Positions 22,458 to 59,259 of a DNA stretch of 64,000 nucleotides are shown here, piece after piece. The notes beneath the pieces are model-generated. The model made no database searches. It was not told the DNA's origin and saw only the letters and a program-made list of their open reading frames with translations. This stretch comes from a virus: positions 32,001 to 96,000 of the IMG/VR virus record IMGVR_UViG_3300031758_000004. One strand, written 5' to 3'. Position 1 is the stretch's first letter, and each line of letters begins with the position of its first letter. A program made the translations under genes and the position numbers.

Positions 22458-22616
22458 ATGTTTGTAGCTCCCGATCCTAATACAATTGTACTTGGTGGTC
22501 CTGGTTCCAGGTTAAATCCATATAGTCATTGGTTCCAACCATTTCAAATCACTCGTCATAAAATGAGAAAGAAAAAAATTGAAAAAATATATGGAATTAG
22601 TAGGAAAGAAAAGTAA
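22458..22616 (+). CDS. Small ORF (52 aa), not in the ORF track
   Basis: ATG 3 nt after the previous stop. MFVAPDPNTIVLGG...KMRKKKIEKIYGISRKEK*. Fills the intergenic gap. Confidence 0.55.
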   Translation: MFVAPDPNTIVLGGPGSRLNPYSHWFQPFQITRHKMRKKKIEKIYGISRKEK

Positions 22617-22848
22617 TTTAGAACCTGGTTATGTTTTTGCTCCGTATATAATACAAACATCTAATCCTATAATTGATGGTAGTTTAAAACAGAATATTAG
22701 AAGGGTGAAAATAAATAAAGTTTATAACCTTAATAGAGAAATAAAAGATAGTCAATTTTCACCAAAAATGGCAGTTAAATCAAGATATTCTGTTACAAGT
22801 GTAAATAGTAATTATTTTGGAAAGATTGAAATAAAAAACCCACTTTAA
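22591..22848 (+). CDS. Miniature homologue of the T4 gp23-type major capsid protein C-terminus
   Basis: EPGYVFAPYI and FSPKMAVKSRY...YFGKIEI match my recollection of gp23-family C-terminal motifs. Probable ATG start at 22591. Confidence 0.6.
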   Translation: MELVGKKSNLEPGYVFAPYIIQTSNPIIDGSLKQNIRRVKINKVYNLNREIKDSQFSPKMAVKSRYSVTSVNSNYFGKIEIKNPL

Positions 22849-22858
22849 AAGTGGGTTT
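22836..22858. terminator. Bidirectional intrinsic terminator
   Basis: AAACCCACTT-TAA-AAGTGGGTTT between convergent genes. Confidence 0.75.
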
Positions 22859-22864
22859 AATTAT

Positions 22865-23227
22865 CTATATAAAGTAATATAAGACTAATTTAACAAAATT
22901 TCTATCATCTCTTAAAAGTCTATTAATGTCGATAGAGATTTTTTCTGGATGAAATCCTCTAACTTCGGTTGACTCGATATCTTCTAGATGTAAACCTTCA
23001 CCTAATGTTAAGTACTCATTAACTTCAGATATTACATCTTTAATATCAATAGAGTTAAAGACTCTAATTCCATCAGAGTTTTTTGTTATCTCAATAATAA
23101 GGTAGTTATCTTTGTTATCAACCTTTGTTTTGAAATCAAATTTTTCTAATTTATATAAAATTCTTTCTAAGTTAGACTTAACTGGATCTAATTCATAACT
23201 CTCATTAAACCTTCTCAAATATTTCAT
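22865..23227 (-). CDS. Hypothetical protein with capsid-targeting-like N-terminus
   Basis: 120 aa, starts MKYLRRFNES. Confidence 0.6.
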   Translation of the reverse strand: MKYLRRFNESYELDPVKSNLERILYKLEKFDFKTKVDNKDNYLIIEITKNSDGIRVFNSIDIKDVISEVNEYLTLGEGLHLEDIESTEVRGFHPEKISIDINRLLRDDRNFVKLVLYYFI

Positions 23228-23814
23228 TATTTAGTATATTTTAATTTGTAAAGTGTTTTATAAAGAAGAACTACAATATCATCAATAATACTATGTAAAT
23301 GAGTATCTTCCTCATTAATACATTTTCTCTCAACTTTAATAAAAGTAGCTAATTCATTGAAATATTCAATAGTATCTTTAGAAGCGGTTTCTTTTGTATC
23401 AATTACATCATATTCTTCAATAATACCATATTGACCTTGATATGCCTCTATCGTATCATCAATTAATTCCAAAACATCTTCATAATAATCACCAAGCGCT
23501 GTATGTTTAGCATGTGAACCCATATCACCTTTAACTTGTAAGTGATAAATATGTGCCATTTCTCTACTTTCAAATAATTTAGAGAAGAATTTACCCGGAT
23601 TTGAACCTTCGCCTAAGAATTGTTTTGGTTCTTCTTCACTTTGTGCCTGAGCTTGAGCCTGTGATTGTGCCTGAGATTGACTTTGAGCACCTTGACCTTG
23701 TAACATTTTTACAAGTTCATCTTTAGATAATTCATCATAATTTGTTGGAAGATTTGCGTCTTCGTTGAATTTTCTAAGTTTTGATTTCTTTTGTATATCA
23801 GAAAACCTTTTCAT
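23227..23814 (-). CDS. Ferritin-like four-helix protein (DUF5856-like) with Gln/Ala linker
   Basis: AHIYHLQ...SHAKHTALGDYYE....LID..IEAYQGQYG pattern and a QSQSQAQSQAQAQAQS linker. Confidence 0.6.
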   Translation of the reverse strand: MKRFSDIQKKSKLRKFNEDANLPTNYDELSKDELVKMLQGQGAQSQSQAQSQAQAQAQSEEEPKQFLGEGSNPGKFFSKLFESREMAHIYHLQVKGDMGSHAKHTALGDYYEDVLELIDDTIEAYQGQYGIIEEYDVIDTKETASKDTIEYFNELATFIKVERKCINEEDTHLHSIIDDIVVLLYKTLYKLKYTK

Positions 23815-23901
23815 AATAATATTTTAATTTTTAATTATATATTAAAAAGATAAAACTGAAAATTTCATTTTAATATATAACCTATAAAAATATTTTTTAC
23901 T

Positions 23902-24078: not shown

Positions 24079-24086
24079 TTAAAATT

Positions 24087-27000
24087 ATGAAATTAAAATT
24101 AAAAGACTTTTCACAATTTTTTGAAGAAGCTGATATTAAAAAGAACATCGGTCTTCCGAAAGATTTTACATCAAGAGCTGAAGAAGAAGCAACTAAAAAT
24201 TTAGGTATTAATATAGATCAACCAACTCGAAGTAGATTGATGGAATATGCTGATAAAGCTGATCAACTAATGGGTAGATCTATTCCAAAAAATCAGATTG
24301 AAGAGAAATATACTCAATTGGAAAACTTAGCAAAAAAAGTTATTGAGACTGAATATAAAGCAGTATTTGAGTTTCTACCAATTGAATTAGATATTAGACT
24401 AATCAGACCAGGTGAATCTGTTATGGGTGAAATGCCTGAATTGGGAAAAAAACAAGAACAACCTGGTGTTAGACCTGATTATAAAGAAGAAGAATCTCAA
24501 TCCGATGAAGAACAATCTGATGAAACTCAGTCACAATCTCAATCACAAGAAGACGACGATTTCTTTAGTTTTTTTGGAGGTGATGACGAAGAACAAGAAT
24601 CTAATGAAGAGGAAGATTTAGAAAATATTATTGAGCCAGAAGTAACTAATAAAGATGTCGCTATGGCTGTTGATAAAACACAAATCTTAAATATGATTAC
24701 TCAAGGTGCTGGTAAAGCAACCAAAGATATAATCAAGTTTTCTGAATTAATTTCCTCTGAATTAAAAAACATTTTAGGTGATAATTCTGGTGAGATTTTA
24801 AAATTATGGGGTCTTATATCAGATGAAGCTGATAAAGGTGACTGGACAACTCCTATACACATTAAATCAAATCTATTTAAAGATAATCCAGGTGGAATTG
24901 CAGGGGCTGTTAGAGTTTTGTGGGAAAGTAAAAACATATCATATGAATTAGAATTATTAAAAGAAAATTCTAATTATAGTAAAATTGTTGTTAAAGCATT
25001 TGGAGTTGATTTTCCTATGTTGATACATGAGGCTGTAAAAGGTATCTATATGATTTTACAATCACCAGCTATTAAAAAGAATAAGGAATTAGCTGAGGAA
25101 ATTAAAATGGCTACTTCTTCTTATATGGACGAAGCTTCTGATTTTAGATATGGACCATTAGCTCAAAAGATGTTTAGAGATTTTATTTATCATTGTAAAG
25201 ACGCTGATAGATATCCAAATATGGTTGAGAGAGTTTTATACTTTTTAGCAATGGATATTGATAATAATGGTAAATTTACGGATGAACAATTTTTGGAAAT
25301 AACAAAGAGTTTATTTTCTTCTTTTAATAAAGTCGTTGAAGGTGGTAAAATAGAGTTTACTATTAATGAAGAAAGATTTGTTGAATCGATTGCTAGAACT
25401 AAAATCGAAGAATTGATTAAAGAAGAAGTTGATTTTGAAGAAGAAATGGAAAGAATGGAAAGAGAAAAAGATCTTAAATCTGCTCTTCCTTCCGAAAACG
25501 AGCCAAAACAACCAGAGACAACGGTTGATGATGAAGAGGATGAAATTGAAAAATTAAAAAGAGCTACAGCTCAAAGAGAACAAGATTATAGTAATATGTC
25601 ACCAAGAGAAATCCAAGAGTTAATTGATGATGCTTTAGATAGTGGTGATTATGAAAAAGTTAAGTTTCTTTCTCAATTCTTAAAAGAAGGTAAAGAAATC
25701 TATTTAAGAGAAATAGAGATGTTGAATGAAAGAATTAAAATCAGAGAGAAATCAAAATTGATTAAATCCGAATTTATCTTAAATGAGAATTTAGATAAGG
25801 CTAAAAAGTTTATGAAAGATACTTATATCTTAACAACTGCGGCTAATAAAATTGGTTTAGAAAACTTATTTGATCAATCAACTTCTGATAAAATGAAACT
25901 AGAGTTAGGAAGAGGTGAGAAGAAAATACTTACACCTAATGACTTTACTTTAGTTGATTCTGAGAAAAGAAAAGAGTTATCAGGTGTGATGAGAACTATT
26001 CCGGTAAATGATGATAAATTAAGAGAGTTAATTACAACCCCTGAATTTAAATCAATTCGTGAAATAAAAACAACGGTTGATGGTAAAGAATATCAGTTGG
26101 ATAGAGATAATATTGGTTGGTTATTTAATTTTGTTTATTTCTATTACGCTGAGAATATATCATTAGAAGATTTAACAAACTTATATCAACAATTAATTGA
26201 GAATAAAGATATTCTTAATTTATTAGATAAACCTTTTGATTTAAACTTTATTGATATTAAAATACCAAATAATAATGAGAAATTAATTGACTCATTGAAT
26301 AAATTACCTGCTCAAAGAGCTTACAAGAGATTAGAGTCTGACTTACCACCACACCTAAAAAGAGATTTAAAAGATTCTCCTAATTATATCAAGGATCAAT
26401 TCAGAGATTTAGCCTCTTCTTTTAGTGAATTAGATCCAGAATTATATAAAGGTTTCTGGGGTCAGATGATGATGGATGATAGAGAAGGTTCGAAAACATT
26501 TGGTAAGGTTGTTTTTAGAAGTCCTATATCAAGATTTAAGACAATTATTGAGTTAATACAAAATGCGAATGGTTATCTTAACTCTTGTGGTAATGGTTCA
26601 TTTGATGAATTCTATAAAAAATTACAAGCTTGTAATATGAAATGGGGAGCATCTGGAGCAAAAGAAGTTTTCTTTGAAAAAGGAATTTTAATTTTAGAAG
26701 TTGCTTCTTATGAGGCTAATAGAATGCTAAATGGTCATACAACACACTGTATTGTTACAAGCCGTGGACAATGGGATGGTTATGTAAATAGCACAAATGG
26801 ACGATTAACTTATGAAAATAAACAATATTATATTTATAACTTTAATTTACCATCAACAAATAATATGTGGACAATTGGTGTAACAATTCAACCAAATTCA
26901 AGAAACTATATTAGAGCAGCTCATAATAAAACAGATGGTAATGTTGCTTCAAGACTAGTTGATATATTAAGAGACTGGGGTAAAGAATACGATATTAATG

Positions 27001-27890
27001 CTGATGCTGAAAAGAAAGCTAAAGAATTAGGAGCATCTGATTCTGATATTTCTAGTTATGGTCCAGTATTCGCTTTAATGAGACCACTTTCAAGTGAGGA
27101 ATTAGAAAGAAGAAGAAAATCAAGAGAAGCTGAAATTGAAATTACTAAACCTGGTAAAACAATTAAAGACTTAGAGGAATATGTTAAGAAATGGGGAGCT
27201 AGTATCAACCACCTTGATTATTCAACTAAGAAATGTGCTCTTGATTGGGCTGTCCAAGAAGATGATTTAGAGAAAGCTAAGTATATACTTGAAATGGGTG
27301 CTGATCCAAATGTTAGACAAATTAATGTTAATGGTCAGATGGTTCCTGATAAGAAAACAGCAGTTATTAATGGTGCTAAATCATTAGATATGATTAAGTT
27401 ATTGATTTCACACCAATCAATTGTAACACCAGTAGTTTATGAAACTATCAGTGGTGATATAAATGCGGTTGAGTTCCTATTGGATAATAATGTTGATCCT
27501 AATTTTGAAAATTCACTACCGGTTAGAAGATCTTGTAGAGGTTCATTTGATGACGCTAATTACAAAAGAACTGGTGACAGAGGTGAGAGTTACTTAACAA
27601 CATTTGAATTACTTGTTAAGAGAAATGTTAAGCTAACAGATTCAAGAGGAAGAATGATGGTTCTTAAATGGGCTTCTGAATACGCGAGATTGGATATTTT
27701 AGAATATTGTGCTAATATGGGAATTGAGTTTGGATGGATTCAAGCTTATACTTGGGCATATAACTCAAGAAAATTAAATAATAATGATCTTAAAGAATTA
27801 GCAGACTTCATAATACCTTATATTGAGAAATATGAACCTGAACAATGGAAAGAAACTTCTAAAGATAAAAAATGGCATTTAAGTTTATGA
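24087..27890 (+). CDS. Large multidomain protein with C-terminal ankyrin repeats, probable internal virion protein
   Basis: 1267 aa, starts MKLKLKDFSQFFEE. Ankyrin-like ALDWAVQEDDLEKAKYILEMGADPN, AVEFLLDNNVDPN and LKWASEYARLDILEYC. Confidence 0.65.
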   Translation: MKLKLKDFSQFFEEADIKKNIGLPKDFTSRAEEEATKNLGINIDQPTRSRLMEYADKADQLMGRSIPKNQIEEKYTQLENLAKKVIETEYKAVFEFLPIELDIRLIRPGESVMGEMPELGKKQEQPGVRPDYKEEESQSDEEQSDETQSQSQSQEDDDFFSFFGGDDEEQESNEEEDLENIIEPEVTNKDVAMAVDKTQILNMITQGAGKATKDIIKFSELISSELKNILGDNSGEILKLWGLISDEADKGDWTTPIHIKSNLFKDNPGGIAGAVRVLWESKNISYELELLKENSNYSKIVVKAFGVDFPMLIHEAVKGIYMILQSPAIKKNKELAEEIKMATSSYMDEASDFRYGPLAQKMFRDFIYHCKDADRYPNMVERVLYFLAMDIDNNGKFTDEQFLEITKSLFSSFNKVVEGGKIEFTINEERFVESIARTKIEELIKEEVDFEEEMERMEREKDLKSALPSENEPKQPETTVDDEEDEIEKLKRATAQREQDYSNMSPREIQELIDDALDSGDYEKVKFLSQFLKEGKEIYLREIEMLNERIKIREKSKLIKSEFILNENLDKAKKFMKDTYILTTAANKIGLENLFDQSTSDKMKLELGRGEKKILTPNDFTLVDSEKRKELSGVMRTIPVNDDKLRELITTPEFKSIREIKTTVDGKEYQLDRDNIGWLFNFVYFYYAENISLEDLTNLYQQLIENKDILNLLDKPFDLNFIDIKIPNNNEKLIDSLNKLPAQRAYKRLESDLPPHLKRDLKDSPNYIKDQFRDLASSFSELDPELYKGFWGQMMMDDREGSKTFGKVVFRSPISRFKTIIELIQNANGYLNSCGNGSFDEFYKKLQACNMKWGASGAKEVFFEKGILILEVASYEANRMLNGHTTHCIVTSRGQWDGYVNSTNGRLTYENKQYYIYNFNLPSTNNMWTIGVTIQPNSRNYIRAAHNKTDGNVASRLVDILRDWGKEYDINADAEKKAKELGASDSDISSYGPVFALMRPLSSEELERRRKSREAEIEITKPGKTIKDLEEYVKKWGASINHLDYSTKKCALDWAVQEDDLEKAKYILEMGADPNVRQINVNGQMVPDKKTAVINGAKSLDMIKLLISHQSIVTPVVYETISGDINAVEFLLDNNVDPNFENSLPVRRSCRGSFDDANYKRTGDRGESYLTTFELLVKRNVKLTDSRGRMMVLKWASEYARLDILEYCANMGIEFGWIQAYTWAYNSRKLNNNDLKELADFIIPYIEKYEPEQWKETSKDKKWHLSL

Positions 27891-30470: not shown

Positions 30471-30472
30471 AC

Positions 30473-30844
30473 ATGAACCGTCCAGAAGTAAGAATAGTTC
30501 AAAATCAAGAGATTGAAACTAATCAAAATCCTAACATTGATAATTGGGAAGCTGAACAATTATTAAGAAAGTATGGATATAAACCGGAAAATTCCAATAC
30601 TTTTCAACAACCTGAACAAATTGAACAACCTGGGATGACATTTGAGGAAATGATTGCTCAAGAAGAAAATAGAAGAAATCAAGAACGAATGAGAATGGAA
30701 CAACAAATGAGAGGTCCTAAACCAGTTTCATTTGATGGTAGAAATGGTTATTATTCACAAACTTCATATGGTACTGATAGTGATTCTGGATTTTCATTCA
30801 AGATTGAAGTTACTAGTGATATGAATATTCCTAAAAATTACTAA
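30473..30844 (+). CDS. Hypothetical Gln/Glu-rich protein
   Basis: 123-aa ORF. Confidence 0.6.
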   Translation: MNRPEVRIVQNQEIETNQNPNIDNWEAEQLLRKYGYKPENSNTFQQPEQIEQPGMTFEEMIAQEENRRNQERMRMEQQMRGPKPVSFDGRNGYYSQTSYGTDSDSGFSFKIEVTSDMNIPKNY

Positions 30845-31194
30845 TTTAATATCTGACTTAATTTTAATTCTCTTAATAACTGAATTAGTATAGGAGATGT
30901 TCTGAATGGAAAATAGTGATTTGGGACTTCTTCATTTAAAAACTTTTTAAAGTTTAAAATTATTGTAGTTTCTTTATAATCTGATTTTGATAAATCAAAG
31001 TGGTAAATTCCCTTTTTAAAAGACTCTTGTAGATGTGATAACGAACACAAGTCATAAAATCCGTTAATAAATCCAAACCATTTTTTCATAAGATATTCTA
31101 AATCATTATTGAATTCATATTCAGATAACTCATTTTCATTTAGTATTTTTAATACCAAATAGTTTTTATCACTTAATGTTATTTTATTATCCAT
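30841..31194 (-). CDS. Hypothetical protein with C-terminal RxxKL tag
   Basis: 117 aa, ends LLRELKLSQILN. Confidence 0.55.
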   Translation of the reverse strand: MDNKITLSDKNYLVLKILNENELSEYEFNNDLEYLMKKWFGFINGFYDLCSLSHLQESFKKGIYHFDLSKSDYKETTIILNFKKFLNEEVPNHYFPFRTSPILIQLLRELKLSQILN

Positions 31195-45767: not shown

Positions 45768-46166
45768 TTAGATAACTTCTTTAATTACTTCACTGACAAG
45801 TTTTCTATCTACTGGTAGAGTAGAGAACTCTTTCATAATTTGTCCGATATTAGTGATACCCGCTAATTTCAACTCAGTTACCTTAGCAACAATATCTTCT
45901 TTAGATAACTGTTTTGGTAAATAAGCTTCGATAATAGCTAATTCCATTTTAGCAATTTCACCACCTTTTTCGATAGTTTCTTTTAGTGATTTAACTGTTT
46001 TGTTAAGAATTTTTGTCACTTCTTCATCAGATAAAGAATCGACACCGGTATTCTTTTCAAGAGTTTGAATTTCACCTTTGATTACAGAAAGTAAGTTTTT
46101 TGATACTACGTCTTTTGCTTTAAACGCAGTCATGTAATCAGTACTGATTTTTTGTTTTAGTGTCAT
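45768..46166 (-). CDS. yqeY: GatB/YqeY-domain protein
   Basis: LKQKISTDYMTAFKAKD, LSDEEVTKIL, ELAIIEAYLPKQLS, NIGQIMK. Confidence 0.85.
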   Translation of the reverse strand: MTLKQKISTDYMTAFKAKDVVSKNLLSVIKGEIQTLEKNTGVDSLSDEEVTKILNKTVKSLKETIEKGGEIAKMELAIIEAYLPKQLSKEDIVAKVTELKLAGITNIGQIMKEFSTLPVDRKLVSEVIKEVI

Positions 46167-48170: not shown

Positions 48171-48513
48171 ATTTAATATCTTCTATTTTATAATCTAATT
48201 CAATTAAAAGTAACTGACATTCAACTTTTAATTGAATTAGTTTATCTACATCAACCTCTTCTAATATAGACCTACTTATTGATTCCATTTCATCTAAAAT
48301 AGTTTGTCTAATCTTATAAAGATCTTCTAATACATCTTCCTTTATCTCTAATAAGATAGATTTATAAAAAGGATTTTTTGTTAAATCTTCTCTGTAAAAA
48401 TCAACACTAAATCCTTTAACTATCTTTTCAATATTTGAAATGATATCTTCCTCAGTATTAGACTGATTTAATTCTTTAAGTATTTTTTGATATTCATCAA
48501 AGTTTTTACCCAT
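48163..48513 (-). CDS. Hypothetical helical protein
   Basis: 116-aa ORF abutting smpB. Confidence 0.55.
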   Translation of the reverse strand: MGKNFDEYQKILKELNQSNTEEDIISNIEKIVKGFSVDFYREDLTKNPFYKSILLEIKEDVLEDLYKIRQTILDEMESISRSILEEVDVDKLIQLKVECQLLLIELDYKIEDIKSI

Positions 48514-48953
48514 TATCTAAAATTCATTTCTCTTTTAGCATCTCTATCAATATCCCTTTGTTTGATATCTTGCTTTTTATTCCAAAGTTTCTTACCTTTA
48601 CAAACACCAATTTTCAATTTCAATCTGTTATTTTGAATGAAAATACCTAATGGTATAATAGTAGTTCCTTTATCTTGTATAAGTCTATCTATTTTAGCGA
48701 TCTCTTTCTTATGTAATAATAATTTCTTTTCACGATTTTCATCATGAACTTCAATTTTATGAGACCATTTGTAACGAGAAACTTTTAAGTTTTTAATCCA
48801 TAACTCACCAGACTTAAAGTAAGCATACGAATCAACTAAGGTAACATCACCTCTTCTGATAGATTTAACTTCACTACCTGTTAAAATAATACCGCAATCA
48901 AATTCTTCAATTACATCAAACGAATATCGAGCCTTTCTATTACTTACTATCAT
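48513..48953 (-). CDS. smpB: SsrA-binding protein SmpB
   Basis: NRKARY, GIILTGSEVKSIR, KKLLLHKKEI, TIIPL, GKKLW tail. Probable start ATG 48953. Confidence 0.93.
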   Translation of the reverse strand: MIVSNRKARYSFDVIEEFDCGIILTGSEVKSIRRGDVTLVDSYAYFKSGELWIKNLKVSRYKWSHKIEVHDENREKKLLLHKKEIAKIDRLIQDKGTTIIPLGIFIQNNRLKLKIGVCKGKKLWNKKQDIKQRDIDRDAKREMNFR

Positions 48954-49016
48954 ATATTTTTTATACAAAAATAAACAAAAGTTTTATAAGGGGCTACATT
49001 ATTTAATATATAAATA

Positions 49017-49151
49017 ATGAAAAAGTGTAAATGGTGTAATAAAGAATTGGTTGATAAAAGATCTGACTCTCTTTTTTGTAGAAGATCTTGTAAAGGAATG
49101 TTCAGTAGAAAGAAAAAAATAGAAAATGAAAAAAGAGATAGAAAAGTTTAA
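49017..49151 (+). CDS. Small zinc-finger ORF (44 aa), not in the ORF track
   Basis: MKKCKWCNKELVDKRSDSLFCRRSCKG... directly after TTAATATATA (49003-49012). Overlaps the endonuclease start. Confidence 0.6.
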   Translation: MKKCKWCNKELVDKRSDSLFCRRSCKGMFSRKKKIENEKRDRKV

Positions 49152-50190
49152 GTCTATACACGGTGATGCTTATGACTACTCATTAGTTAATTATATTAAC
49201 AATATAACAAAAATAGAGATAATATGTAAGATTCATGGCGTTTTTGAACAAACACCACATCATCATAAACGAGGTGGTGGTTGTGGTAAATGTACAAAGG
49301 GTGCGCCATCTTTATCAAAGGATGATTTTATCAAAAAGTCGGTTAGTAAACATGGTAATTTATATGATTACTCATTGGTGAATTATATTAATAATAGGAC
49401 TAAAGTCGAGATAATTTGTACTAAACACGGAATTTTTAACCAAACTCCACAATCACACTTAAATGGTAGTGGATGCTCAATGTGTAATGTGAAATGTATA
49501 AAAAATGATGAATTAATAAAAAGATTTAATGATAAACATAATGGTTCTTATACTTATCTCCTCTGTGAAGAAAGATATAAATTGTCGGACTTTATAGATA
49601 TCAAGTGTGAAATTCATGGTGTGTTTACACAAAGAATATCAAACCATCTTGTATCTGGTTGCCAGAAATGTGGTGGATTTGTATATGATAATGATGATTT
49701 TGTAGATAAATCGATTAAAGTACATGGTGATAAATATGATTATAGTTTATCAGTATATAAAAACTTCAAAACTGATGTTAATATAATATGTAAAAAACAC
49801 GGAATTTTTAAACAAAAACCTTATTTACATACATCTGGATCAGGTTGTGCTAAATGTAATGAGTCAAAAGGTGAAAAGATTATATCTTGGTTTTTGACTA
49901 AAAAAGGTATAAAATATGAAACACAAAAAACTTTTGATGATTGTGTTTATAAGAAAAAATTAAGATTTGACTTCTATTTACCCGAATATAATACTTGTAT
50001 AGAATATAATGGTATTCAACATTATGGAGAAGTTAAAGCTTTTGGAGGACATTCTTATTTATTAGATATTAAAACTAAGGATAATATAAAAGTTAATTAT
50101 TGTAATAATATGAATATAAATTTAATAGTGATAAAATATACAGATTTTGAAAATATATCTAACATAATTAGTAATTATATATCATTATAA
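49126..50190 (+). mobile_element. Free-standing homing endonuclease, paralogue of 21206-22102
   Basis: Four YDYS/CxxHG repeats, then LRFDFYLPEYNTCIEYNGIQHY. Confidence 0.85.
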
Positions 50191-50721
50191 TTCATTTAAT
50201 GAAAATGTTTCGTTATCCGCTCCAAATCTATTTTTCATTAGTTTAGCAACTCCCTTATCAATCATAAAAGCCAAATCAGCAATATACATACTTCCACTCC
50301 CTCCCTTTAAATTTTGAGATGGTGTTACTTCTAATGAAGTGTATGTTGGTGCAGTAAAAATTACTTTTAATCCACATTCTACACACTCACTTCTTAACTT
50401 TTCAACTATTTGATTTAATTGTATTGATTTATATACATCACTTTTTTGTAAATGTGGTAAATCGTTGTAATCAATCAATATGTATTTAAAGTTTATTTTT
50501 GATAAATCTTCCGAATCATTTAGAATAGAATCTAATCTAATATCTCTTATCTTTTGTTTAAGACTACCATTAAAAGAAAAAGATGGATCTATTTCTCTTA
50601 AATCAATATATGATAATTTAGAAATAAATTCATTTTTTAAATTTTTATCATTTGAAGTATATCCAATTGTAGTAAAGTTAGATTGATCTACTAAACTATA
50701 TAAATACTCAATTGATTTCAT
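50185..50721 (-). CDS. Degenerate DnaB/RecA-fold protein (inactive ATPase) with inserted RDxRL tag
   Basis: YILIDY, VEKLRS, YIADLAFMI and KLMKNRFG align to this window's own DnaB C-domain. The Walker A position reads TSNDKN. Confidence 0.65.
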   Translation of the reverse strand: MKSIEYLYSLVDQSNFTTIGYTSNDKNLKNEFISKLSYIDLREIDPSFSFNGSLKQKIRDIRLDSILNDSEDLSKINFKYILIDYNDLPHLQKSDVYKSIQLNQIVEKLRSECVECGLKVIFTAPTYTSLEVTPSQNLKGGSGSMYIADLAFMIDKGVAKLMKNRFGADNETFSLNEL

Positions 50722-51866: not shown

Positions 51867-53127
51867 TTTTATTCTCTAAGTTTAGAACTTTTCTAACTTT
51901 ACCTTTAGTATCATTAACAATTTCTTTTCTAACCGATAATTCCAATAATAATTTCTCACTATCATCAATAATATCAGGCATTTTAAACCCCTCTTTTTCT
52001 AATAGAGAAATTGCTATAATTGGATCATCAGAAAACTCATTAAATAAAGTTTTAATTATATTTAATTGTTCTGATAGAGTGTAACCATTGAGTGAGTTTA
52101 TTGCTCTTGTGTTCTCAACAAGTCTTTTAAGTAAATCTAAATCTTCTTTACTCGGTTGACAATCTATATAATCTTCTGTGTTAAAATTATAAGACTTCCA
52201 TATTTTTTTAATCTCTTCATTTTCATAAACATTTCTTATATAGAATAAGAAGTTCTTACAAGTTTGAATAGATGTTATATCAGAGTCACTCCAATATTCA
52301 AATCCTTTATCAACCATGTTTATAACATCAAATAATACTTTTTCTTCTTTAACATATTTAACTGGTATCAATTTATATAACTTATCATCAGAATTAAACA
52401 TAGTTTTTATATACATCTCATCATCTAAACACCTAACTATATTAAAGTAATTACTTAACTTATCTGAGTATTTTTCAAATATTTCATAATATCTTTCTTT
52501 AAACATTCTTTTTGAAACATCTGAGAAATAGTAACTATTACTGATTACATAAGACAGGATCTTATACTCAAATTCATCTAATTCACAACCTAATTCATCA
52601 GACTTTTTAATTATTCTGATAGCAGTATGTGATGGTGTGGTTAAGTTAACTATCTTCAATTCACCGGTTTTCAAGAAATTCTCAAACTCTTTAGTCCAAT
52701 AAAATTTATCTTCATCAATTGAATAACCAACTGCTGTACAATTTATATCAAATGAGTCTATAATAAACTTTGGATCTTCGATATTTGAATCGTATTCTAT
52801 AATATTAAATATTCCGTCTTTTTCAGACGATGCGATTGAATAGAAATTTTTTGTGTAAGTACTCCAGTTTATACCAGTATAATCTTCATAAGCTTTAATA
52901 TCATCAACTTTATATCTATAAAGACTATCTCTATCAACATTAGAGAATTTATCTATTTTATTTCTAAAAATAAAAACATCAATATCATTTACAACTGCTT
53001 TTTTACCGGAAACTAATTCCCACGCAATATTAGCAATAGAACCACCAGCAATAAATCCTGTTTTTGGAATACCCCAAGTATCTTTAATTATTTGTAGAGC
53101 TGATCTACAAAGACTTTCTATATTCAT
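51853..53127 (-). CDS. Nucleotidyltransferase, CCA-adding/poly(A) polymerase-like head domain
   Basis: GFIAGGSIAN, NDIDVF (DxD), SFDINCTAVG, TAIRII. Confidence 0.65.
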   Translation of the reverse strand: MNIESLCRSALQIIKDTWGIPKTGFIAGGSIANIAWELVSGKKAVVNDIDVFIFRNKIDKFSNVDRDSLYRYKVDDIKAYEDYTGINWSTYTKNFYSIASSEKDGIFNIIEYDSNIEDPKFIIDSFDINCTAVGYSIDEDKFYWTKEFENFLKTGELKIVNLTTPSHTAIRIIKKSDELGCELDEFEYKILSYVISNSYYFSDVSKRMFKERYYEIFEKYSDKLSNYFNIVRCLDDEMYIKTMFNSDDKLYKLIPVKYVKEEKVLFDVINMVDKGFEYWSDSDITSIQTCKNFLFYIRNVYENEEIKKIWKSYNFNTEDYIDCQPSKEDLDLLKRLVENTRAINSLNGYTLSEQLNIIKTLFNEFSDDPIIAISLLEKEGFKMPDIIDDSEKLLLELSVRKEIVNDTKGKVRKVLNLENKIKEI

Positions 53128-53387
53128 TTTAAAAGTTTTATGAGTTTACTATCTCTTATTTCTTCTACTTTTGTGAAGAAACTTTTATCTATACAAAATT
53201 TATCAGCATGGATTTTAGAAGGGTTTTCAAATATCAGAAGTTTTTCTTCACCATCTTCAAAAGTATCCAAAACCATTAATTTTTGATTTCTATCAATACC
53301 AAATGACTCTAAAAGATTTTGACTGTCCTTTTTGAAAAGACGGTCAAAACCAGTACAGATAACTATATCACCAATATTAAAATCCAT
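53124..53387 (-). CDS. Small KOW/SH3-like protein with C-terminal RDxKL tag
   Basis: Starts FNIGDIVIC, ends IRDSKLIKLLK. Confidence 0.55.
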   Translation of the reverse strand: MDFNIGDIVICTGFDRLFKKDSQNLLESFGIDRNQKLMVLDTFEDGEEKLLIFENPSKIHADKFCIDKSFFTKVEEIRDSKLIKLLK

Positions 53388-54073
53388 TATTTAACTGTAT
53401 CAATACAATTTCTCCATCTACGACCTTCATAAACTTCATCAATTTTCTTAAAGTCGTTTTTAGTTTCACCAATAAGAATTGACCTACCATTTCTTATTTG
53501 TGATTTGATTGTACTTAGGTTTTTACCTAATTGATCAGAGATTTCTTTGTAAGACATTTTTCTAATCTCTCTCATTTCAATGACTGTTTTATATGGTTCT
53601 TTTAATTTAGATATTTGTTCTATCATAATAGAAGCCTTAATATCATTAGACTCATATAATTCTAAATTAGTTTGATAATCTTCAGGTATAAAATCTTTCA
53701 TTGTTGTACCTTCATCATCATACTCTGTATCAAGAGATACATTTCTTTTATCATTTTTGATTGCTTGAAGAGCAAGATTTTTAGCTATAGTGAATAGCCA
53801 AGTTGAAAATTGAGCTTTTTCATCATCATACTTATCAATCTTTTCAAAAGCTGTTAAGAACGAATCTGTTGCTATGTCTTCTGTTTTTTGAGGATCATTA
53901 CACATTTTAGAAGTGTAATAAATTAATTTTGGATAATACTTTTTGTAAAGAGTTGAAAAATCTTTACCTGTTTTTTCTACGAAAAACTTTTCTTGTTCTG
54001 AGAATAAAATGTTTTCTTTCATAATTGCCGTTAAAATTTTATTGACTGCCGTCATTGCCTTATATTTATTCAT
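53387..54073 (-). CDS. ECF-type sigma70 factor
   Basis: FSTLYKKYYPKL, DIATDSFLTAFEKI, FSTWLFTIAKN (region 2) and MSYKEISDQLGKNLSTIKSQIRNGR (region 4). Confidence 0.9.
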   Translation of the reverse strand: MNKYKAMTAVNKILTAIMKENILFSEQEKFFVEKTGKDFSTLYKKYYPKLIYYTSKMCNDPQKTEDIATDSFLTAFEKIDKYDDEKAQFSTWLFTIAKNLALQAIKNDKRNVSLDTEYDDEGTTMKDFIPEDYQTNLELYESNDIKASIMIEQISKLKEPYKTVIEMREIRKMSYKEISDQLGKNLSTIKSQIRNGRSILIGETKNDFKKIDEVYEGRRWRNCIDTVK

Positions 54074-54160
54074 AACTTAATCCCCTCTATGAGAAGACCA
54101 AGTAATATTATACTTATTTATTTATAAAAAGTTTACTACTTTTATAAATTTTTTTGTATA

Positions 54161-54574: not shown

Positions 54575-54586
54575 TTTATTTTGTTT

Positions 54587-54973
54587 TTAATTAATTCCTA
54601 AATCACCTAATTTTTCATCTCTTCTTTTTGAAATAATCATTGAATAAACTTTTCGTAAAAAGTCATCAAAATGATCATCTTCCATTACTCCATCAGATAT
54701 AGATACATCTAAATCTTTTTCCATTTTCATAATAAGATCTATAACGTCATAAATATCAATATCTGTAAGATTATTTATATCATATCCAATCTCTTTTATT
54801 TTGGATTCAATATCATACTTTTTATCCACTATTAACTCAACCAATTCATCAACGGTCTCAATTAATCTTATTTCAGATCTAGTATATGATTGTACTGTTA
54901 CCTCATGAGGACCATTTTTGAGTTTATTAAGCTCATCAATGTTTATATTGATATTTGGTGGATTTACACTCAT
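54587..54973 (-). CDS. Hypothetical protein with C-terminal RDxKL tag
   Basis: 128 aa, ends KRRDEKLGDLGIN. Confidence 0.55.
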   Translation of the reverse strand: MSVNPPNININIDELNKLKNGPHEVTVQSYTRSEIRLIETVDELVELIVDKKYDIESKIKEIGYDINNLTDIDIYDVIDLIMKMEKDLDVSISDGVMEDDHFDDFLRKVYSMIISKRRDEKLGDLGIN

Positions 54974-55194: not shown

Positions 55195-55199
55195 ATTAC

Positions 55200-55814
55200 T
55201 TAATTTAAAATTTTATCTATTTTTTCGTCTCTTATCTCACCAATGAAATGAGAAAGCATAGTATTTATATCCGAGTCAATAAGATGTCGGTTCGATAAAA
55301 TACTCATTTTATTTATATATTCAAAGAAATTAAACTGATTTCTCTTAATATCTTCTAAGTCTATATCTAATTTATCACAATCCGAAAAAAATGAATTTTT
55401 ATAATCTGGATAAATATTATTTACATATTTTTCTGATATACTCAATTTTCTACCAGTTATAACATCTTGTGGACTTTTATTCACAAACTCGTTTGTTATT
55501 ATATCATTTAGTGACTTACCAACTTCTATATAACCAATCTCACCATTAAGAATAACTGAATAGAAATATCTAGTTCCAATACTCTTAACTTTAGATGCGA
55601 TTTTAGAATTATCAAATTCTCTTTTGTAAAGCCAAATTTTATTTGATAGTTTACCATCTAAATCATAGTATATTTTACTATCAATATAGACGTATCTTGT
55701 CGATATATTCAAGTCAAAACTCTGACCGTTCCATATCGGTAAGATCCTAAACTCTTGATTATTTTCAATTTTAAATTTCATACTAATTATCAAAAAAGAA
55801 ACAACATCTAACAA
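55200..55814 (-). CDS. Degenerate T4 gp32-like ssDNA-binding protein with C-terminal RDxKI tag
   Basis: FRILP, RYFYSVI, VGKSLNDII, DVITGRKLSI and YPDYKNSFF resemble gp32 core motifs. Ends IRDEKIDKILN. The true start may be downstream of 55814. Confidence 0.5.
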   Translation of the reverse strand: MLDVVSFLIISMKFKIENNQEFRILPIWNGQSFDLNISTRYVYIDSKIYYDLDGKLSNKIWLYKREFDNSKIASKVKSIGTRYFYSVILNGEIGYIEVGKSLNDIITNEFVNKSPQDVITGRKLSISEKYVNNIYPDYKNSFFSDCDKLDIDLEDIKRNQFNFFEYINKMSILSNRHLIDSDINTMLSHFIGEIRDEKIDKILN

Positions 55815-56283
55815 AAGATGGATTTGTATCCAACTTACTCATTTTATCCAAAGTGGATTTAAAATTTGGAAAATCAGTCCAATCATACTCTAATAACTCT
55901 TTTAAAGTAAAGTATGAGTGTGAGTGACCGTCACCATTCCATTGTTCACACATATACTTATATCCAAAAGAAGCATCTTTTGGAATTCCTCTTGGATCTG
56001 AGATAGCATTATATTCTCCGTAACCTCTAACATCAGCTAATATTGAAAATAAAGAGTAGTTTCTACCAGAATAAAAACGTTCTTCATATAAGGTGTTCCA
56101 ATACTCATTAAATCCATCAGTTTCTATCTCCCAACTATCAGCAGATACCCATCTAAAATGAGATGGACTTTCATCTAAAATCTGATTTAATCTCAAATCT
56201 CTTTCTTCTGAAAGATCTCTTGGACCTTCATAATCATTAGAATCTGTCCACCTCTCTACAAAAAAATGACAATCACACCCCAC
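55783..56283 (-). CDS. Conserved phage protein (MGCD.H...RNY.LF..LA.VR family) with inserted RDxRL tag
   Basis: MGCDCHFFVE, GRNYSLFSILADVRG, PRGIPKD, HSHSYFTLKELL, RCCFFFDN. Confidence 0.65.
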   Translation of the reverse strand: MGCDCHFFVERWTDSNDYEGPRDLSEERDLRLNQILDESPSHFRWVSADSWEIETDGFNEYWNTLYEERFYSGRNYSLFSILADVRGYGEYNAISDPRGIPKDASFGYKYMCEQWNGDGHSHSYFTLKELLEYDWTDFPNFKSTLDKMSKLDTNPSFVRCCFFFDN

Positions 56284-56284
56284 A

Positions 56285-57076
56285 TTATTTATTTTTATAG
56301 TAATTTAACATATCTTGATATTTTTCATATTTTCTATCTAAATGAGTGGTTGTTTCATCATACAACCAATCTAAAACCTTAATTATTTGTCTATTACCTC
56401 TTAGATAAACTGAATATATCGACTTCATTTTTCTTAATTTAATATTAACATTATTTTTAGAAAGTATTAATTGTAAAGTCTTCATCAAATCATAAGAACC
56501 AACAATGGAAAAAGTATATCTTCTATAATTTTTATCCATTGAGTAAGTCAAACAACCATCACCATCAAAAATACCTTTTATAAAAAATCTATCAAATTCC
56601 GAATCTATATTTGGATAAGTAACAATTTTGCTTTTTCTCTTAACTAATCCTAAACAATCAACATCAGATAATAACTTTTTATCTTGTATTGTTAGATAAA
56701 AAATATCTTTACCGTTTATTATATTTTTCTTTTTTCTAACCGGCATATCACAATTTACATAAATTTTATCTCTCAATTTTTCCAAATGTCCCTCATCTTG
56801 TATATCCACTCTAATAAACTTACCACTATTATAACCATCAGCCATCAAAAAACCCAACCAATAAGCTTTATCTTCCGAATCTATTACTTCAAAATAATCT
56901 TTGTTTATCAAATATTTTCTATGAGTCTTTTTAACCTCAATATTATTAACTTTTAACCTGTTTGTTATAGTAGCGACATCAACATTAAAAAGTCTTCCTA
57001 TTTTACTAGCACTAAAATTCTCTTCGGTATAAAGTCTAATAATCTCTTTTTCATCAATTTGTTTTTTCTTTCCCAT
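56285..57076 (-). mobile_element. Free-standing double-motif LAGLIDADG homing endonuclease
   Basis: AYWLGFLMADG and FFIKGIFDGDG motifs with an N-terminal HTH. Confidence 0.88.
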
Positions 57077-57098
57077 ATCTTATATATTAAGATATGGG
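57072..57098 (-). promoter_or_regulatory. Start-codon-sequestering hairpin with embedded phage promoter
   Basis: Perfect 11-bp inverted repeat CCCATATCTTA/TAAGATATGGG. The stem contains the ATG and TTAATATATA spans the loop. Confidence 0.75.
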
Positions 57099-57144
57099 TT
57101 GTTCATTTCACCTTACCTTAGAATTATCTATTTGATACTATCTA

Positions 57145-59013
57145 TTATTTTAATAGATCCTCTAATTGTTCAACAGTAATAACTTCTACTCCCAAATCAA
57201 GAGCCTTTTTCTCTTTAGAAGAACCAGAACCAATCGCTTTCATAACTAAGTGTGTTGTGTTTTTACTAACACTACCACCAATTTTACCACCACGAGATTC
57301 AATAACCTCTTCTAATTCTTTTCGACGAACTCCTGTGAATACAAACTGCTTACCTTCTAAGTCATTAGAAACTTGTACTACTTCAACTTTCTCAGAAATA
57401 GTAACTGGTAAATCAGAAATAAACTCGAAGAACTTATCATAATTATCAACATAAGTTTTAGCAGAAATCTCAGCAAATCCTTCAATTTCCATAACTTTTC
57501 CAACAGTAGGTTTTTCATTGAAGTGTTCTAACAGAGCTAACTTTTTACTTCCTAATCCAGAGAAGATGCCAGTAGCGTGTTGTAATTTAGATAATTGAAC
57601 ACCAGTGATAGACTTTTGAATTGAGTCATAAACAATTTTAGCTTTACGTTTACCAAAACGATCAATCTTTTCTAAGTTTTCTACTTTAAGATTTAAAATA
57701 TCTTTAATAGTTTTATAACCAGCATCCCACAATTGTGTGATAACACCTTCTGAAACATTATCAGCTTCTAATATCTCAAAGAAAGCGATATTCTTTTTTA
57801 ATTTTTGCTCTTCTGTTTCAGTTAATGTGATTAACTCAATACCAGCCTCATTCCAATCAATCTCAACACCTTCGATAGTTGGTAAAACAAATTCAACTGT
57901 TTCTAATACGTCAGCAATAATTGGAATAACCATACCACTACGTTTAACAACAACTTTAGCACCAACTCCCAATCCCATATCTTTTACGAAACGAGCGTTA
58001 TTACCAGTTACATTAGATACAGTAACTCCGTCTAATTTAACAGGTTTGATATGTAATACCGGTTTTAATAAACCTTGTTTAGAAATATTCCAAGTAATAC
58101 CAATTACTTCTGTTTCAGCTGATTGCTCGAAACTTGGGTGTTTGAATGCTCTTGCGAATACTGGGTTACCTGATGAAGTTTCACGACCTAATGATGATTG
58201 TGTTGCTAAGTTATTTACCTCTAAGATAATACCATCAATCTCATATTCTTCAGACCATTCTTTAAATAAAGAGATAAGTAATTCTTCTGTTAAATCTAAA
58301 ATGCCACAAACATGATAAGGTACTTTTACTTTTTGATTCTCATTTAATTCATCTAATATTTGTTGTTTAGTGGTGAAATGATTTCTGAATTTTGATGATG
58401 GAATAGCACCATATTTAATAAAGTTACAATCTTTTAAAGCTTCTCTCGCATCTGGTGAGTTGATAAGACCAGCCACGAAGTTTCTTGGGTTAGCATAATC
58501 ATTTGAGTATTTATCGATAAATACTCGTTTAGGCATAATAACTTCACCATAACTATGTGAGAAAGTAATAGGTGCGAAAGGATCTATATCATTTTCAATG
58601 TCATATAACTTGTTTCCTATAAGTTTATAGTGTTCATTTGATTTTTGACCATAAACACCATCTCCACGAGTGATAGCATCACCGTTGTTTTCTTCATCTT
58701 TACATAAAGAAAGACCATCATATTTAGGTGTACAGATAATTTCAACAGAGTTTGGGATAAGTTTAAGACGTTGCCAGTCTTTAATTTCTTCTAAAGACTT
58801 AATTTTGTTCATAGAAGCCATTGGAATAGGTAGACGAGTTTTTCTCGTTTCGTCAAGAATTTCATGTCCTACAACAGATAACAATTCATCATCTGGTGAC
58901 ATATCAGATAACTCTTCTACAAGAATATCATATTCTTTATCAGACATAATTGGTTTTCCAATTCTATATGCCTCGTTTGCTTCTTTAATCTTATTCTTTA
59001 ATTGTTCTATCAT
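57145..59013 (-). CDS. ligA: NAD-dependent DNA ligase
   Basis: ANEAYRIG, PMASMNK, KYDG adenylation motif, TRGDG, EIDGII, OB-fold and HhH, C-terminal BRCT (GKQFVFTG...VSKNTTHLV). Confidence 0.93.
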   Translation of the reverse strand: MIEQLKNKIKEANEAYRIGKPIMSDKEYDILVEELSDMSPDDELLSVVGHEILDETRKTRLPIPMASMNKIKSLEEIKDWQRLKLIPNSVEIICTPKYDGLSLCKDEENNGDAITRGDGVYGQKSNEHYKLIGNKLYDIENDIDPFAPITFSHSYGEVIMPKRVFIDKYSNDYANPRNFVAGLINSPDAREALKDCNFIKYGAIPSSKFRNHFTTKQQILDELNENQKVKVPYHVCGILDLTEELLISLFKEWSEEYEIDGIILEVNNLATQSSLGRETSSGNPVFARAFKHPSFEQSAETEVIGITWNISKQGLLKPVLHIKPVKLDGVTVSNVTGNNARFVKDMGLGVGAKVVVKRSGMVIPIIADVLETVEFVLPTIEGVEIDWNEAGIELITLTETEEQKLKKNIAFFEILEADNVSEGVITQLWDAGYKTIKDILNLKVENLEKIDRFGKRKAKIVYDSIQKSITGVQLSKLQHATGIFSGLGSKKLALLEHFNEKPTVGKVMEIEGFAEISAKTYVDNYDKFFEFISDLPVTISEKVEVVQVSNDLEGKQFVFTGVRRKELEEVIESRGGKIGGSVSKNTTHLVMKAIGSGSSKEKKALDLGVEVITVEQLEDLLK

Positions 59014-59037
59014 AATACAAATATAATAAAATTATTA

Positions 59038-59259
59038 TTAAATTCTTAATTGATTTAATTTATAATCTCTAGTTTCTCTAATCTTTTCTACTCCTTTTAA
59101 GTGTTTTAGTTTAGTTTTATATGAAGCTGCGCAAGACTTTGAACAACAAAGCCCCCATCCTCTTTTCAAATTTCTTTTATCTGGTATAAAACTAGATTTA
59201 CAATAAAGACAGAATGACTCTTCTTTTTTACTTTTAGCTTTATCAAATAAATTCTTCAT
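59038..59259 (-). CDS. Small zinc-finger protein with C-terminal RDxKL tag
   Basis: CLYC...CCSKSC, ends TRDYKLNQLRI. Confidence 0.65.
   Translation of the reverse strand: MKNLFDKAKSKKEESFCLYCKSSFIPDKRNLKRGWGLCCSKSCAASYKTKLKHLKGVEKIRETRDYKLNQLRI

What the first reader, a model, noticed from the sequence alone, without database searches (positions are those of the whole stretch)
22458..59259. A portable R-[DE/x]-x-[KR]-[LI]-x-x-[LI] tag grafted onto about nine unrelated proteins, including dead copies of core phage proteins
Seen at C-termini: LRELKLSQIL (30841), IRDSKLIKLL (53124), RRDEKLGDL (54587), IRDEKIDKIL (55200), TRDYKLNQL (59038). Seen internally: IRDIRLDSIL (50185), ERDLRLNQIL (55783), IRRVKINKVY (22591), MRKKKIEKIY (22458). 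Where the host fold is recognisable, the internal copies sit as insertions. Three carriers look like degenerate capsid, helicase and SSB proteins, and such proteins are known triggers of anti-phage sensors. Inference: a short amphipathic docking helix that brings many accessory proteins to one hub (host RNAP, protease, chaperone, membrane or a phage scaffold). It may form a decoy or anti-defence display system. I know of no description of this.
Basis: partly seen in the sequence, partly recalled or inferred. Interest (0 to 1): 0.88.

Follow-up and report, generated by a model that had tools for sequence, protein, structure and literature searches.

The report
Shared C-terminal helix tag, huge phage
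About one protein in twelve of this huge lake phage and its 634-kb relative, otherwise unrelated to each other, carries the same nine-residue helix (R-D-x-K-I/L-x-x-I/L-L), almost always at the very end; selection keeps it at the protein level, so it looks like a portable docking label, I found no description of it, and its reader is still unknown.

Summary
The motif is about 18-fold over shuffles in the window. It is about 50-fold over in the 634-kb relative LR745206 (82 hits against 1.6). There, 68 hits lie within 18 residues of the C-terminus, against 0.1 expected.

- With the motif masked, 97 carriers fall into 90 BLAST groups.
- Synonymous codons inside the tag follow genome usage, so selection acts on the peptide.
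- Orthologues at 27-50% identity keep the tag.
- In one family the tag is a roughly 27-residue insertion, modelled as a helix.

New here:
- There are two covarying flavours: R-[DEN]-x-K-[IL]-x-x-[IL]-L, and R-[KR]-x-[KS]-I-x-x-I-[FY] on tiny proteins that include capsid fragments. The window's two sites near 22.5 kb are the second flavour.
- In the relative, the main flavour is enriched in operons behind host-type Bacteroidota promoters and depleted behind the promoter that drives the capsid gene.
- A separate N-terminal tag shows the opposite bias.
- The relatives encode ClpC without its N-domain plus two or three ClpP, a candidate reader that is not shown to read the tag.

The docking-helix reading is supported. 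The hub and the decoy idea are not. This scan noted the same tag before, in another window of this genome and in another giant Bacteroidota phage.

The parts
30841..31194 (-). 117-aa ORFan ending ...LRELKLSQILN; tag at 30847-30876 (main flavour, E at position 1)
   Evidence: no Pfam or PHROG hit
53124..53387 (-). 87-aa ORFan ending ...IRDSKLIKLLK; tag at 53130-53159; lies directly downstream of the sigma-70-like gene 53387-54073
54587..54973 (-). 128-aa ORFan ending ...RRDEKLGDLGIN; tag variant (L-G-I ending) at 54599-54625
55200..55814 (-). 193/204-aa ORFan ending ...IRDEKIDKILN; tag at 55206-55235; likely true start at 55781; orthologues keep the tag
   Evidence: fold prediction failed
59038..59259 (-). 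73-aa small Cys-rich protein ending ...TRDYKLNQLRI; tag variant at 59047-59073; PHROG matches cover residues 10-52 only, so the tag lies outside the shared domain; host-type promoter TATATTTG upstream
50185..50721 (-). 178-aa RecA/DnaB-like lead with a degenerate P-loop; internal tag IRDIRLDSILN at 50521-50550, kept in both huge-phage orthologues
55783..56283 (-). 166-aa member of phrog_10141; internal tag ERDLRLNQILD at 56176-56205 inside a ~27-residue insertion, modelled as helix 24-37
22579..22848 (+). 89-aa fragment of the T4-type major capsid protein (C-terminal motifs) with an internal second-flavour tag IRRVKINKVY at 22696-22725
22458..22616 (+). 52-aa protein with second-flavour tag MRKKKIEKIY at 22563-22592, 7 residues from the end; conserved next to the capsid fragment in the relative

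Best explanation
The motif is a portable address label kept by selection at the peptide level. It is a short amphipathic alpha-helix in which R0, K3/I4 and I7/L8 lie on one face. It is attached mostly at the extreme C-terminus of small, acidic, mutually unrelated accessory proteins, and occasionally sits in a surface loop.

Its most likely job is to plug all these proteins into one common reader protein. Shown: the label is real, portable, selected as a peptide, helical in one confident model, and clade-wide. Inferred: that there is a single reader.

The main flavour is concentrated in operons behind host-type promoters in the 634-kb relative. I therefore read it as a label for proteins made from the start of infection, not as a capsid-loading signal.

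My preferred reader, with roughly one chance in four, is the clade's own Clp machine: a ClpC that lacks the usual N-terminal substrate or adaptor domain, plus two or three ClpP. Tagged proteins would then be either timed-removal substrates or adaptors that hand bound partners to the protease. A host hub is about equally likely.

The second flavour (R-[KR]-x-K-I-x-K-I-[FY]) sits on tiny proteins, including capsid fragments. It probably has a different partner connected with head assembly.
For: - Enrichment and terminal bias. Controls: reversed proteins, reversed DNA pattern (27 hits per relative against 0), bacterial genomes.
- Carriers are unrelated: 97 carriers fall into 90 BLAST components once the tag is masked.
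- Selection is on the peptide: synonymous codon use in the tag equals the background (R p=0.99, D 0.76, K 0.23). Tags are kept in 11-12 of 12 own-relative orthologue pairs whose bodies are 33-77% identical. The tag arginine is invariant in 46 homologues with 57% mean identity, and the tag is present in 107 of 121.
- Portability: the tag is an insertion relative to CcrColossus and EcP1 homologues. Its position shifts between orthologous mini-capsid genes.
- Helix: AlphaFold2 model with pLDDT 87 has a helix at 24-37. Glycine is depleted (0.51x) in the 14 residues before the tag.
- Expression class in LR745206: 14.4% of genes in host-type-promoter units are tagged against 1.9% in units with the promoter found upstream of the capsid and prohead-protease genes (Fisher 6e-7). 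The N-terminal MK.LK[KR]FNE tag shows the reverse, 0% against 7.9%.
- Carrier bodies are more acidic than other small proteins (p 2e-6), and few carry membrane segments.
- Clp lead: ClpC with D1, UVR, D2 and a GVGF loop but no Clp_N, plus 2-3 ClpP, in both complete relatives. Tagged or tag-like genes sit directly beside ClpP and ClpC. The conserved protein upstream of ClpC always ends in R-[ED]-N-I-I-N-D-I-L-N.
Against: - No reader was identified, and no binding was tested.
- The Clp adjacency is weak. About 10% of genes carry a relaxed tag, the loci in the two relatives are orthologous rather than independent, and the pattern was found post hoc.
- The Clp genes are not on this 191-kb contig.
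- The early bias is significant only in the relative. In this contig it is 2 of 20 against 5 of 110. Within the window, four main-flavour carriers sit in units with no recognised promoter or the host type, and three sit behind the phage-type promoter.
- Promoter classes rest on motif matches and a crude operon definition, not on expression data.
- The only confident structural model is of an internal tag. The model of a C-terminal carrier failed (pLDDT 32).
- Some tagged capsid fragments carry the main flavour and sit behind the late promoter.
Confidence: 0.55

Rival explanations
1. Host-hub docking. The tag mimics or exploits a binding groove on one abundant host (Bacteroidota) protein such as RNA polymerase, a chaperone or a host protease. 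Many early phage proteins are thereby concentrated there for host takeover.
For: - Enrichment behind host-type promoters.
- Acidic small ORFan carriers are typical of takeover proteins.
- One Flavobacterium chromosome has an 82-aa ORF ending in a perfect tag.
Against: - In bacterial genomes the motif shows no C-terminal bias (2 of 120), so no host ligand family is visible to be mimicked.
- Nearly all tag-bearing viral contigs I found are relatives of one clade, so a phage-encoded, co-evolving reader fits equally well.
- Per the scan's earlier notes (unchecked), other huge-phage clades use different tags.
Confidence: 0.22
2. Capsid or scaffold loading signal. The C-terminal helix binds the inner face of the capsid protein or the scaffold, as scaffolding-protein tails and encapsulin cargo peptides do. 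The tagged proteins would be packed into the huge head and injected.
For: - Several carriers are capsid-protein fragments, and some tagged genes lie near the capsid gene behind its promoter type.
- 5 of the 10 small proteins most similar to the capsid protein are tagged, against 12% overall.
- Second-flavour genes are never in host-type units.
Against: - The main flavour is depleted 7-fold in units with the capsid-type promoter.
- The prohead protease fusion protein and the capsid protein carry no tag.
- A separate N-terminal tag with the late bias already fits the role of the T4-type capsid-targeting sequence, and it never co-occurs with the C-tag.
Confidence: 0.12
3. No shared reader. The helix is a common structural end-piece, for example a self-association or solubility helix, or the last remnant of one very old, hugely expanded gene family.
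For: - There is no linker before the tag, and it seems to continue a helix (low-confidence model).
- Huge viruses do expand families.
Against: - No similarity outside the tag.
- Carriers have different recognisable bodies: capsid fragment, phrog_10141 fold, Cys-rich domain, RecA-like lead, UvsW-type helicase in the relative.
- The tag appears as an insertion in a loop.
- Conserved R, D and K argue for specific recognition rather than generic packing.
Confidence: 0.08
4. A nucleotide-level signal (promoter, translation-initiation or RNA-binding site for the next gene) that happens to be read as a peptide.
For: - Many tags end 0-5 codons before a stop that overlaps the next gene's start (arrays in L061).
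- Slight excess of ATA and TTA at positions 7 and 8.
Against: - Synonymous sites are otherwise at the genome background.
- All Arg, Leu and Ile codon families are used.
- Tags occur internally and before convergent genes (30841-31194).
- The reading frame is always the coding one.
Confidence: 0.02

Closest known systems
Capsid targeting sequence (CTS) of phage T4 internal proteins (PMC3012670)
   Same: A roughly 10-residue portable peptide is the only thing shared by a diverse set of phage accessory proteins, and it addresses them to one destination.
   Different: The CTS is N-terminal and directs proteins into the scaffolding core. Here the tag is C-terminal or internal, and it is depleted in units behind the capsid-type promoter. 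A separate N-terminal MK.LK[KR]FNE tag in the same genomes is the better CTS analogue.
SspB-type adaptor tether (C-terminal XB peptide docking on ClpX) and ClpS/MecA-type adaptors; phage-encoded ClpP and ClpS noted in jumbo phages (PMC7824862)
   Same: A short C-terminal peptide on otherwise unrelated proteins docks them on an AAA+ protease. The relatives encode their own ClpC and ClpP, and tagged genes sit next to them.
   Different: There is no sequence likeness to XB (from my own knowledge). No flexible linker precedes the tag. The phage ClpC has no N-domain at all. No binding has been shown.
Clamp-binding C-terminal tails of T4 gp43, gp33 and gp55 and PIP-box-like peptides (from my own knowledge)
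   Same: A short C-terminal peptide is shared by unrelated proteins, and the hydrophobic spacing 4-7-8 resembles a PIP box.
   Different: In the relatives the DNA polymerase C-half ends ...MDIFGGFK and the sigma factor ends ...EFDDIDEMYL. Both are acidic-aromatic tails of the T4 type, not the tag.
Encapsulin cargo-loading peptides and the C-terminal capsid-docking helices of scaffolding proteins and the HK97 protease (from my own knowledge)
   Same: A C-terminal short peptide or helix docks on an HK97-fold shell protein. These phages have a T4-type HK97-fold capsid protein, and some carriers are capsid fragments.
   Different: Most carriers are not co-expressed with the capsid gene by promoter class. 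The prohead protease fusion lacks the tag.

Membership tests
T4 capsid targeting sequence | Located at the extreme N-terminus | tested here: not met
   No hit in the contig and 2 of 82 in the relative lie within 18 residues of the N-terminus; 68 of 82 are C-terminal
T4 capsid targeting sequence | Carriers expressed with head genes and packaged | tested here: not met
   Main flavour is 1.9% in capsid-promoter units against 14.4% in host-type units. Packaging itself is not testable here.
Clamp-binding C-terminal tail (T4 type) | Present on the replicative DNA polymerase and the late sigma factor | tested here: not met
   The polymerase C-half and the sigma factor end in different acidic-aromatic tails. 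No gp45 C-domain Pfam hit was found.
ssrA-type C-terminal degron | Fixed last residues next to the free carboxylate | tested here: not met
   0-7 variable residues follow the last tag leucine, and conserved internal copies exist
SspB/XB-type protease tether | C-terminal peptide separated from the body by a flexible linker | tested here: not met
   Glycine is depleted (0.51x) and proline is not enriched (0.88x) in the 14 residues before the tag
SspB/XB-type protease tether | A cognate AAA+ protease with a docking site is present | tested here: inconclusive
   ClpC (no N-domain, GVGF loop) and 2-3 ClpP are present in both complete relatives but not on this contig. Binding is not testable here.
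Encapsulin-type cargo peptide / scaffold C-terminal docking helix | Carried by the scaffold or prohead protease, or by cargo encoded beside the shell gene | tested here: not met
   The 707-aa protease fusion upstream of the capsid gene and the capsid protein lack it. Only a minority of carriers lie near the capsid gene.
Membrane-targeting amphipathic helix (MinD/FtsA type) | Net-positive helix without conserved acidic residues | tested here: not met
   Position 1 is D, E or N in all 68 C-terminal tags by the search definition, position 5 is often D, E or N, and net charge is about zero
Single paralogous gene family | Detectable similarity outside the shared motif | tested here: not met
   90 BLAST components among 97 masked carriers; the only links are orthologue pairs and one paralogue pair

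The most novel reading that the evidence does not exclude
Huge Bacteroidota phages run their own addressed proteolysis system. An N-domain-less ClpC with phage ClpP reads the R-D-x-K-I-x-x-I-L helix. About 8% of the phage proteome is then either cleared on schedule or acts as a set of exchangeable adaptors. These adaptors would include fragments of the phage's own capsid protein that could catch host sensors of that protein, and they would hand bound host proteins over for destruction.
Probability: 0.15. Interest if true: 0.92.

Novelty: new variant of a known kind. Interest (0 to 1): 0.72.

Why it matters
Short portable address peptides are known in phages for a handful of proteins, such as the T4 capsid-targeting sequence and clamp-binding tails. 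[quoted passage not shown]

If a single reader exists, finding it would assign a common pathway to about 8% of the dark proteome of this clade at once. It would also give a ready-made tag and reader pair for engineering. And it would show how very large phages organise their accessory proteins in time or space.

The co-existence of two covarying C-terminal flavours and one N-terminal tag, with opposite promoter biases, points to a multi-channel sorting scheme within one virus.

Tried and rejected
- **DNA or RNA signal:** rejected by codon analysis.
- **Clamp-binding tail:** rejected, because the polymerase and sigma factor carry different tails.
- **tmRNA link:** the window encodes SmpB, so I looked for a phage tmRNA whose tag peptide might resemble the motif. 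ARAGORN found none in the contig or in LR745206, and Rfam found none in the window or L003.
- **Free-standing Clp_N domain as reader:** none found.
- **Profile of 22 tags against all PDB sequences:** no meaningful hit.
- **Fold search of the 55783-56283 model:** no PDB match.
- **AlphaFold2 of the 55200 carrier with 4 sequences:** failed, pLDDT 32.
- **The search for related loci for two carriers:** found nothing.
- **Small complete phages using the tag:** the ~30-kb tag-bearing contigs I found are 7-8% complete fragments of the same clade. I could not reproduce the idea that unrelated small phages share the tag.
- **Tagged proteins evolving faster than untagged small proteins:** not so, 9 of 19 against 53 of 109 have a homologue in the relative.
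- **The look-up of encoding contigs:** closed when called, so the gene context of the ClpC-upstream family could not be surveyed.
- **Megablast of the region against phage records:** no match.
Full report
**What the DNA is.** The window is bases 32001-96000 of a 191,442-bp, 28% G+C virus contig. Its NAD-dependent ligase is 72% and 69% identical to genes in LR745206.1 (634,780 bp) and LR756502.1 (642,428 bp), and gene order is shared around it. Genomes of 634 and 642 kb are among the four largest reported by Al-Shayeb et al. 2020. That paper places them in the 'Mahaphage' clade and predicts that they replicate in Bacteroidetes (PMC7162821). I infer from the matching lengths that the two records are those genomes. 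The paper never uses the word 'C-terminal'. The contig is therefore a fragment of a huge phage (CheckV estimate 73%).

**The observation.** All nine peptides translate as quoted. In the window's 68 ORFs, R[DE].[KR][LI]..[LI] occurs 7 times against 0.38 in shuffles. Five hits lie within 15 residues of the C-end against 0.023. The whole contig has 19 hits, 15 of them 9-13 residues from the end.

I fetched the whole of LR745206. Among its 990 ORFs, R[DEN].[KR][LI]..[LIV][LFY] occurs 82 times against 1.6 in shuffles (maximum 5). Sixty-eight hits lie within 18 residues of the end against 0.1, and reversed proteins give 1. A back-translated DNA pattern gives 27 hits in each of the two huge relatives and none for the reversed pattern.

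The same pattern in IMG/VR hits about 30 contigs, and in them it is again nearly always C-terminal, often in tandem arrays of small genes. In bacterial genomes it gave 120 hits, only 2 of them C-terminal. The logo is h-R-[D>E>N]-x-K-[I/L]-[N/D/K]-x-[I>L]-L, followed by 0-7 residues, most often one.

**Peptide or nucleotide.** Wobble positions vary freely. Across 97 instances, synonymous codon use matches the genome background for R (p 0.99), D (0.76), K (0.23) and most other positions. Only a mild ATA and TTA excess appears at positions 7 and 8. Selection is therefore on the peptide.

**Are the carriers related?** With the tag masked, 97 carriers from the contig and LR745206 fall into 90 BLAST components. 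The only links are six orthologue pairs and one paralogue pair.

Most carriers have no Pfam or PHROG hit. The recognisable ones differ from each other:
- a fragment of the T4-type capsid protein (22579-22848);
- a phrog_10141 protein (55783-56283);
- a small Cys-rich domain (59038-59259);
- a RecA/DnaB-like lead (50185-50721);
- in the relative, a UvsW-type helicase with an internal copy.

I could not confirm any SSB-like carrier.

**Conservation and portability.** Twelve tagged proteins of the contig have a homologue in LR745206. Eleven or twelve of these keep the tag while the bodies are 33-77% identical. Key positions are 69% identical against 54% for the bodies, and most changes are D/E/N or I/L.

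In the 55783-56283 family the tag sits in a roughly 27-residue insertion that is absent from the Caulobacter phage CcrColossus and Enterobacter phage EcP1 homologues. It is present in 107 of 121 environmental homologues, and its arginine is invariant. An AlphaFold2 model (pLDDT 87) makes it helix 24-37, at somewhat lower confidence than the core.

In the mini-capsid gene the tag is internal here but C-terminal in the orthologue of the relative. Glycine is depleted before the tag, so there is no flexible linker. A model of the C-terminal carrier at 55200 failed.

**Two flavours.** Position 1 (acidic or N against basic) covaries with position 8 (L against F or Y). The counts are 73:6 against 2:13, Fisher 8e-10. 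The second flavour, R-[KR]-x-[KS]-I-x-x-I-[FY], sits on proteins of 41-83 residues. It includes the window's two sites near 22.5 kb and several capsid fragments.

LR745206 has at least ten small genes with significant similarity to pieces of its own 560-residue capsid protein, and five of them are tagged. Some capsid fragments, here and in IMG/VR, carry the main flavour inside a longer repeated module.

**Expression class.** Upstream regions in LR745206 are enriched for two motifs. One is [AT]ATATATA, found about 30 nt before the capsid and prohead-protease genes. The other is the Bacteroidota housekeeping-type TTTG...TAnnTTTG; that this is the Bacteroidota consensus is from my own knowledge.

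C-tagged genes make up 14.4% of genes in host-type units and 1.9% in capsid-type units (Fisher 6e-7). A separate N-terminal tag, MK.LK[KR]FNE, occurs on 31 proteins in the relative and 10 in the contig. It shows the reverse pattern (0% against 7.9%, p 1.6e-4) and never co-occurs with the C-tag. Second-flavour genes are never in host-type units.

In this contig the trend is the same but not significant, and the window's own carriers are mixed. These classes rest on motif matches, not on expression data.

Carrier bodies are more acidic than other small proteins (p 2e-6). Only 4 of 68 have a membrane-like segment.

**Who reads the tag?**
- It is not the clamp-binding tail. The polymerase C-half and the sigma factor of the relatives end in acidic-aromatic tails of the T4 kind.
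- It is not on the protease-scaffold fusion or on the capsid protein.
- A profile of 22 tags finds nothing in the PDB.

Both complete relatives, and one IMG/VR relative, encode a ClpC-type unfoldase. It has D1, a UVR motif, D2 and a conserved GVGF loop. Its D1 begins about residue 60, and no Clp_N domain is found anywhere in these genomes. The two complete relatives also encode two or three ClpP.

Tagged or tag-like genes lie directly beside these genes. One sits downstream of a ClpP in both relatives. A conserved 129-145-residue protein upstream of ClpC always ends R-[ED]-N-I-I-N-D-I-L-N. About 10% of genes carry a relaxed tag, and the loci are orthologous. This is therefore a lead, not a result.

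Phage ClpP and ClpS have been noted in jumbo phages without any mention of such tags (PMC7824862).

**Comparison with what is known.** The nearest concept is the T4 capsid-targeting sequence (PMC3012670). The tag fails its defining features, and also those of clamp tails, ssrA-type degrons, linker-borne XB tethers, cargo-loading peptides and membrane-targeting helices; the membership table lists each test. Four literature searches and three papers gave no description of the tag.

The scan's own earlier notes record the same tag in the neighbouring window of this genome and in another giant Bacteroidota phage. They also record different shared tags in other huge-phage clades. I re-derived the whole-contig count myself. 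I did not check the other genomes. The roughly 30-kb tag-bearing contigs I met are fragments of the same clade, not unrelated small phages.

**Verdict.** The docking-helix reading is supported as far as sequence analysis can go. The hub is unidentified, and the decoy idea is untested.

Noticed in passing
LR745206 whole record (L005-L036); contig positions 20350, 33203, 54137, 54865 and others; in the window 22137-22454 and 22865-23227: A second portable tag at the N-terminus, M-K-x-L-K-[KR]-[FY]-N-E, occurs on 31 proteins of the relative and 10 of the contig. It is enriched behind the capsid-type promoter and never occurs on a protein with the C-terminal tag. It is the likely counterpart of the T4 capsid-targeting sequence.
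   Followed up: partly
LR745206 at 423224-425329, 123556-124221 and 75119-75859; LR756502 (L192-L194, L003 26149-26715); L195 2178-4274: The huge relatives encode a ClpC-type unfoldase with no N-terminal Clp_N domain but a conserved GVGF loop, plus two or three ClpP. No free-standing Clp_N domain was found.
   Followed up: partly
LR745206 at 291407, 207176, 93266, 554784, 255010, 440158, 104947; window 22579-22848; L038 12119-13184: There are at least ten separate small genes encoding different pieces of the phage's own T4-type capsid protein. Half are tagged, and some are joined into mosaic ORFs with repeated tag modules.
   Followed up: partly
window 48513-48968 (-) and 45768-46166 (-): A phage-encoded SmpB (Pfam E 9e-51) and a YqeY-like protein. 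No tmRNA gene was found in the contig or in LR745206 (ARAGORN), nor in the window or L003 (Rfam).
   Followed up: partly
contig 25262-26788 (outside the window); LR745206 232803-234344 and 130568-131992: The family-B DNA polymerase is split into an N-half and a C-half, encoded about 100 kb apart in the relative. The N-half ends and the C-half begins with charged helical stretches.
   Followed up: no
LR745206 intergenic regions; window examples upstream of 59259 (TATATTTG) and 22137 (AATATATA): There are two promoter-like motif classes: [AT]ATATATA about 30 nt before the capsid and protease genes and about 150 other units, and Bacteroidota-type TTTG...TAnnTTTG, often right after a terminator hairpin.
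   Followed up: partly
window 53387-54073 (-), 57145-59013 (-), 49126-50190 (+), 56285-57076 (-), 24087-27890 (+), 34431-38261 (+): The window also holds a sigma-70-like factor (regions 2 and 4), an NAD-dependent DNA ligase, two HNH/homing-type endonucleases, a 1267-aa protein with ankyrin repeats and a 1276-aa protein with collagen repeats.
   Followed up: no
L148 3419-3667 (Flavobacterium sasangense chromosome): An 82-aa bacterial ORF ends in a perfect tag (...FRDSKIDEILKKE). It lies next to another small ORF and an 885-aa protein that looks like a TPR and CHAT-type protease by eye. It could be a host gene or a phage remnant.
   Followed up: no
LR745206 ClpP C-termini (for example 123556-124221): The phage ClpP proteins end ...R-Y-G-M-I-D-E-I-L-I-K, which matches the tag at R0, I4, D5, I7 and L8. 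As far as I know this is the ordinary family-wide ClpP ending, so the likeness may be a coincidence.
   Followed up: no
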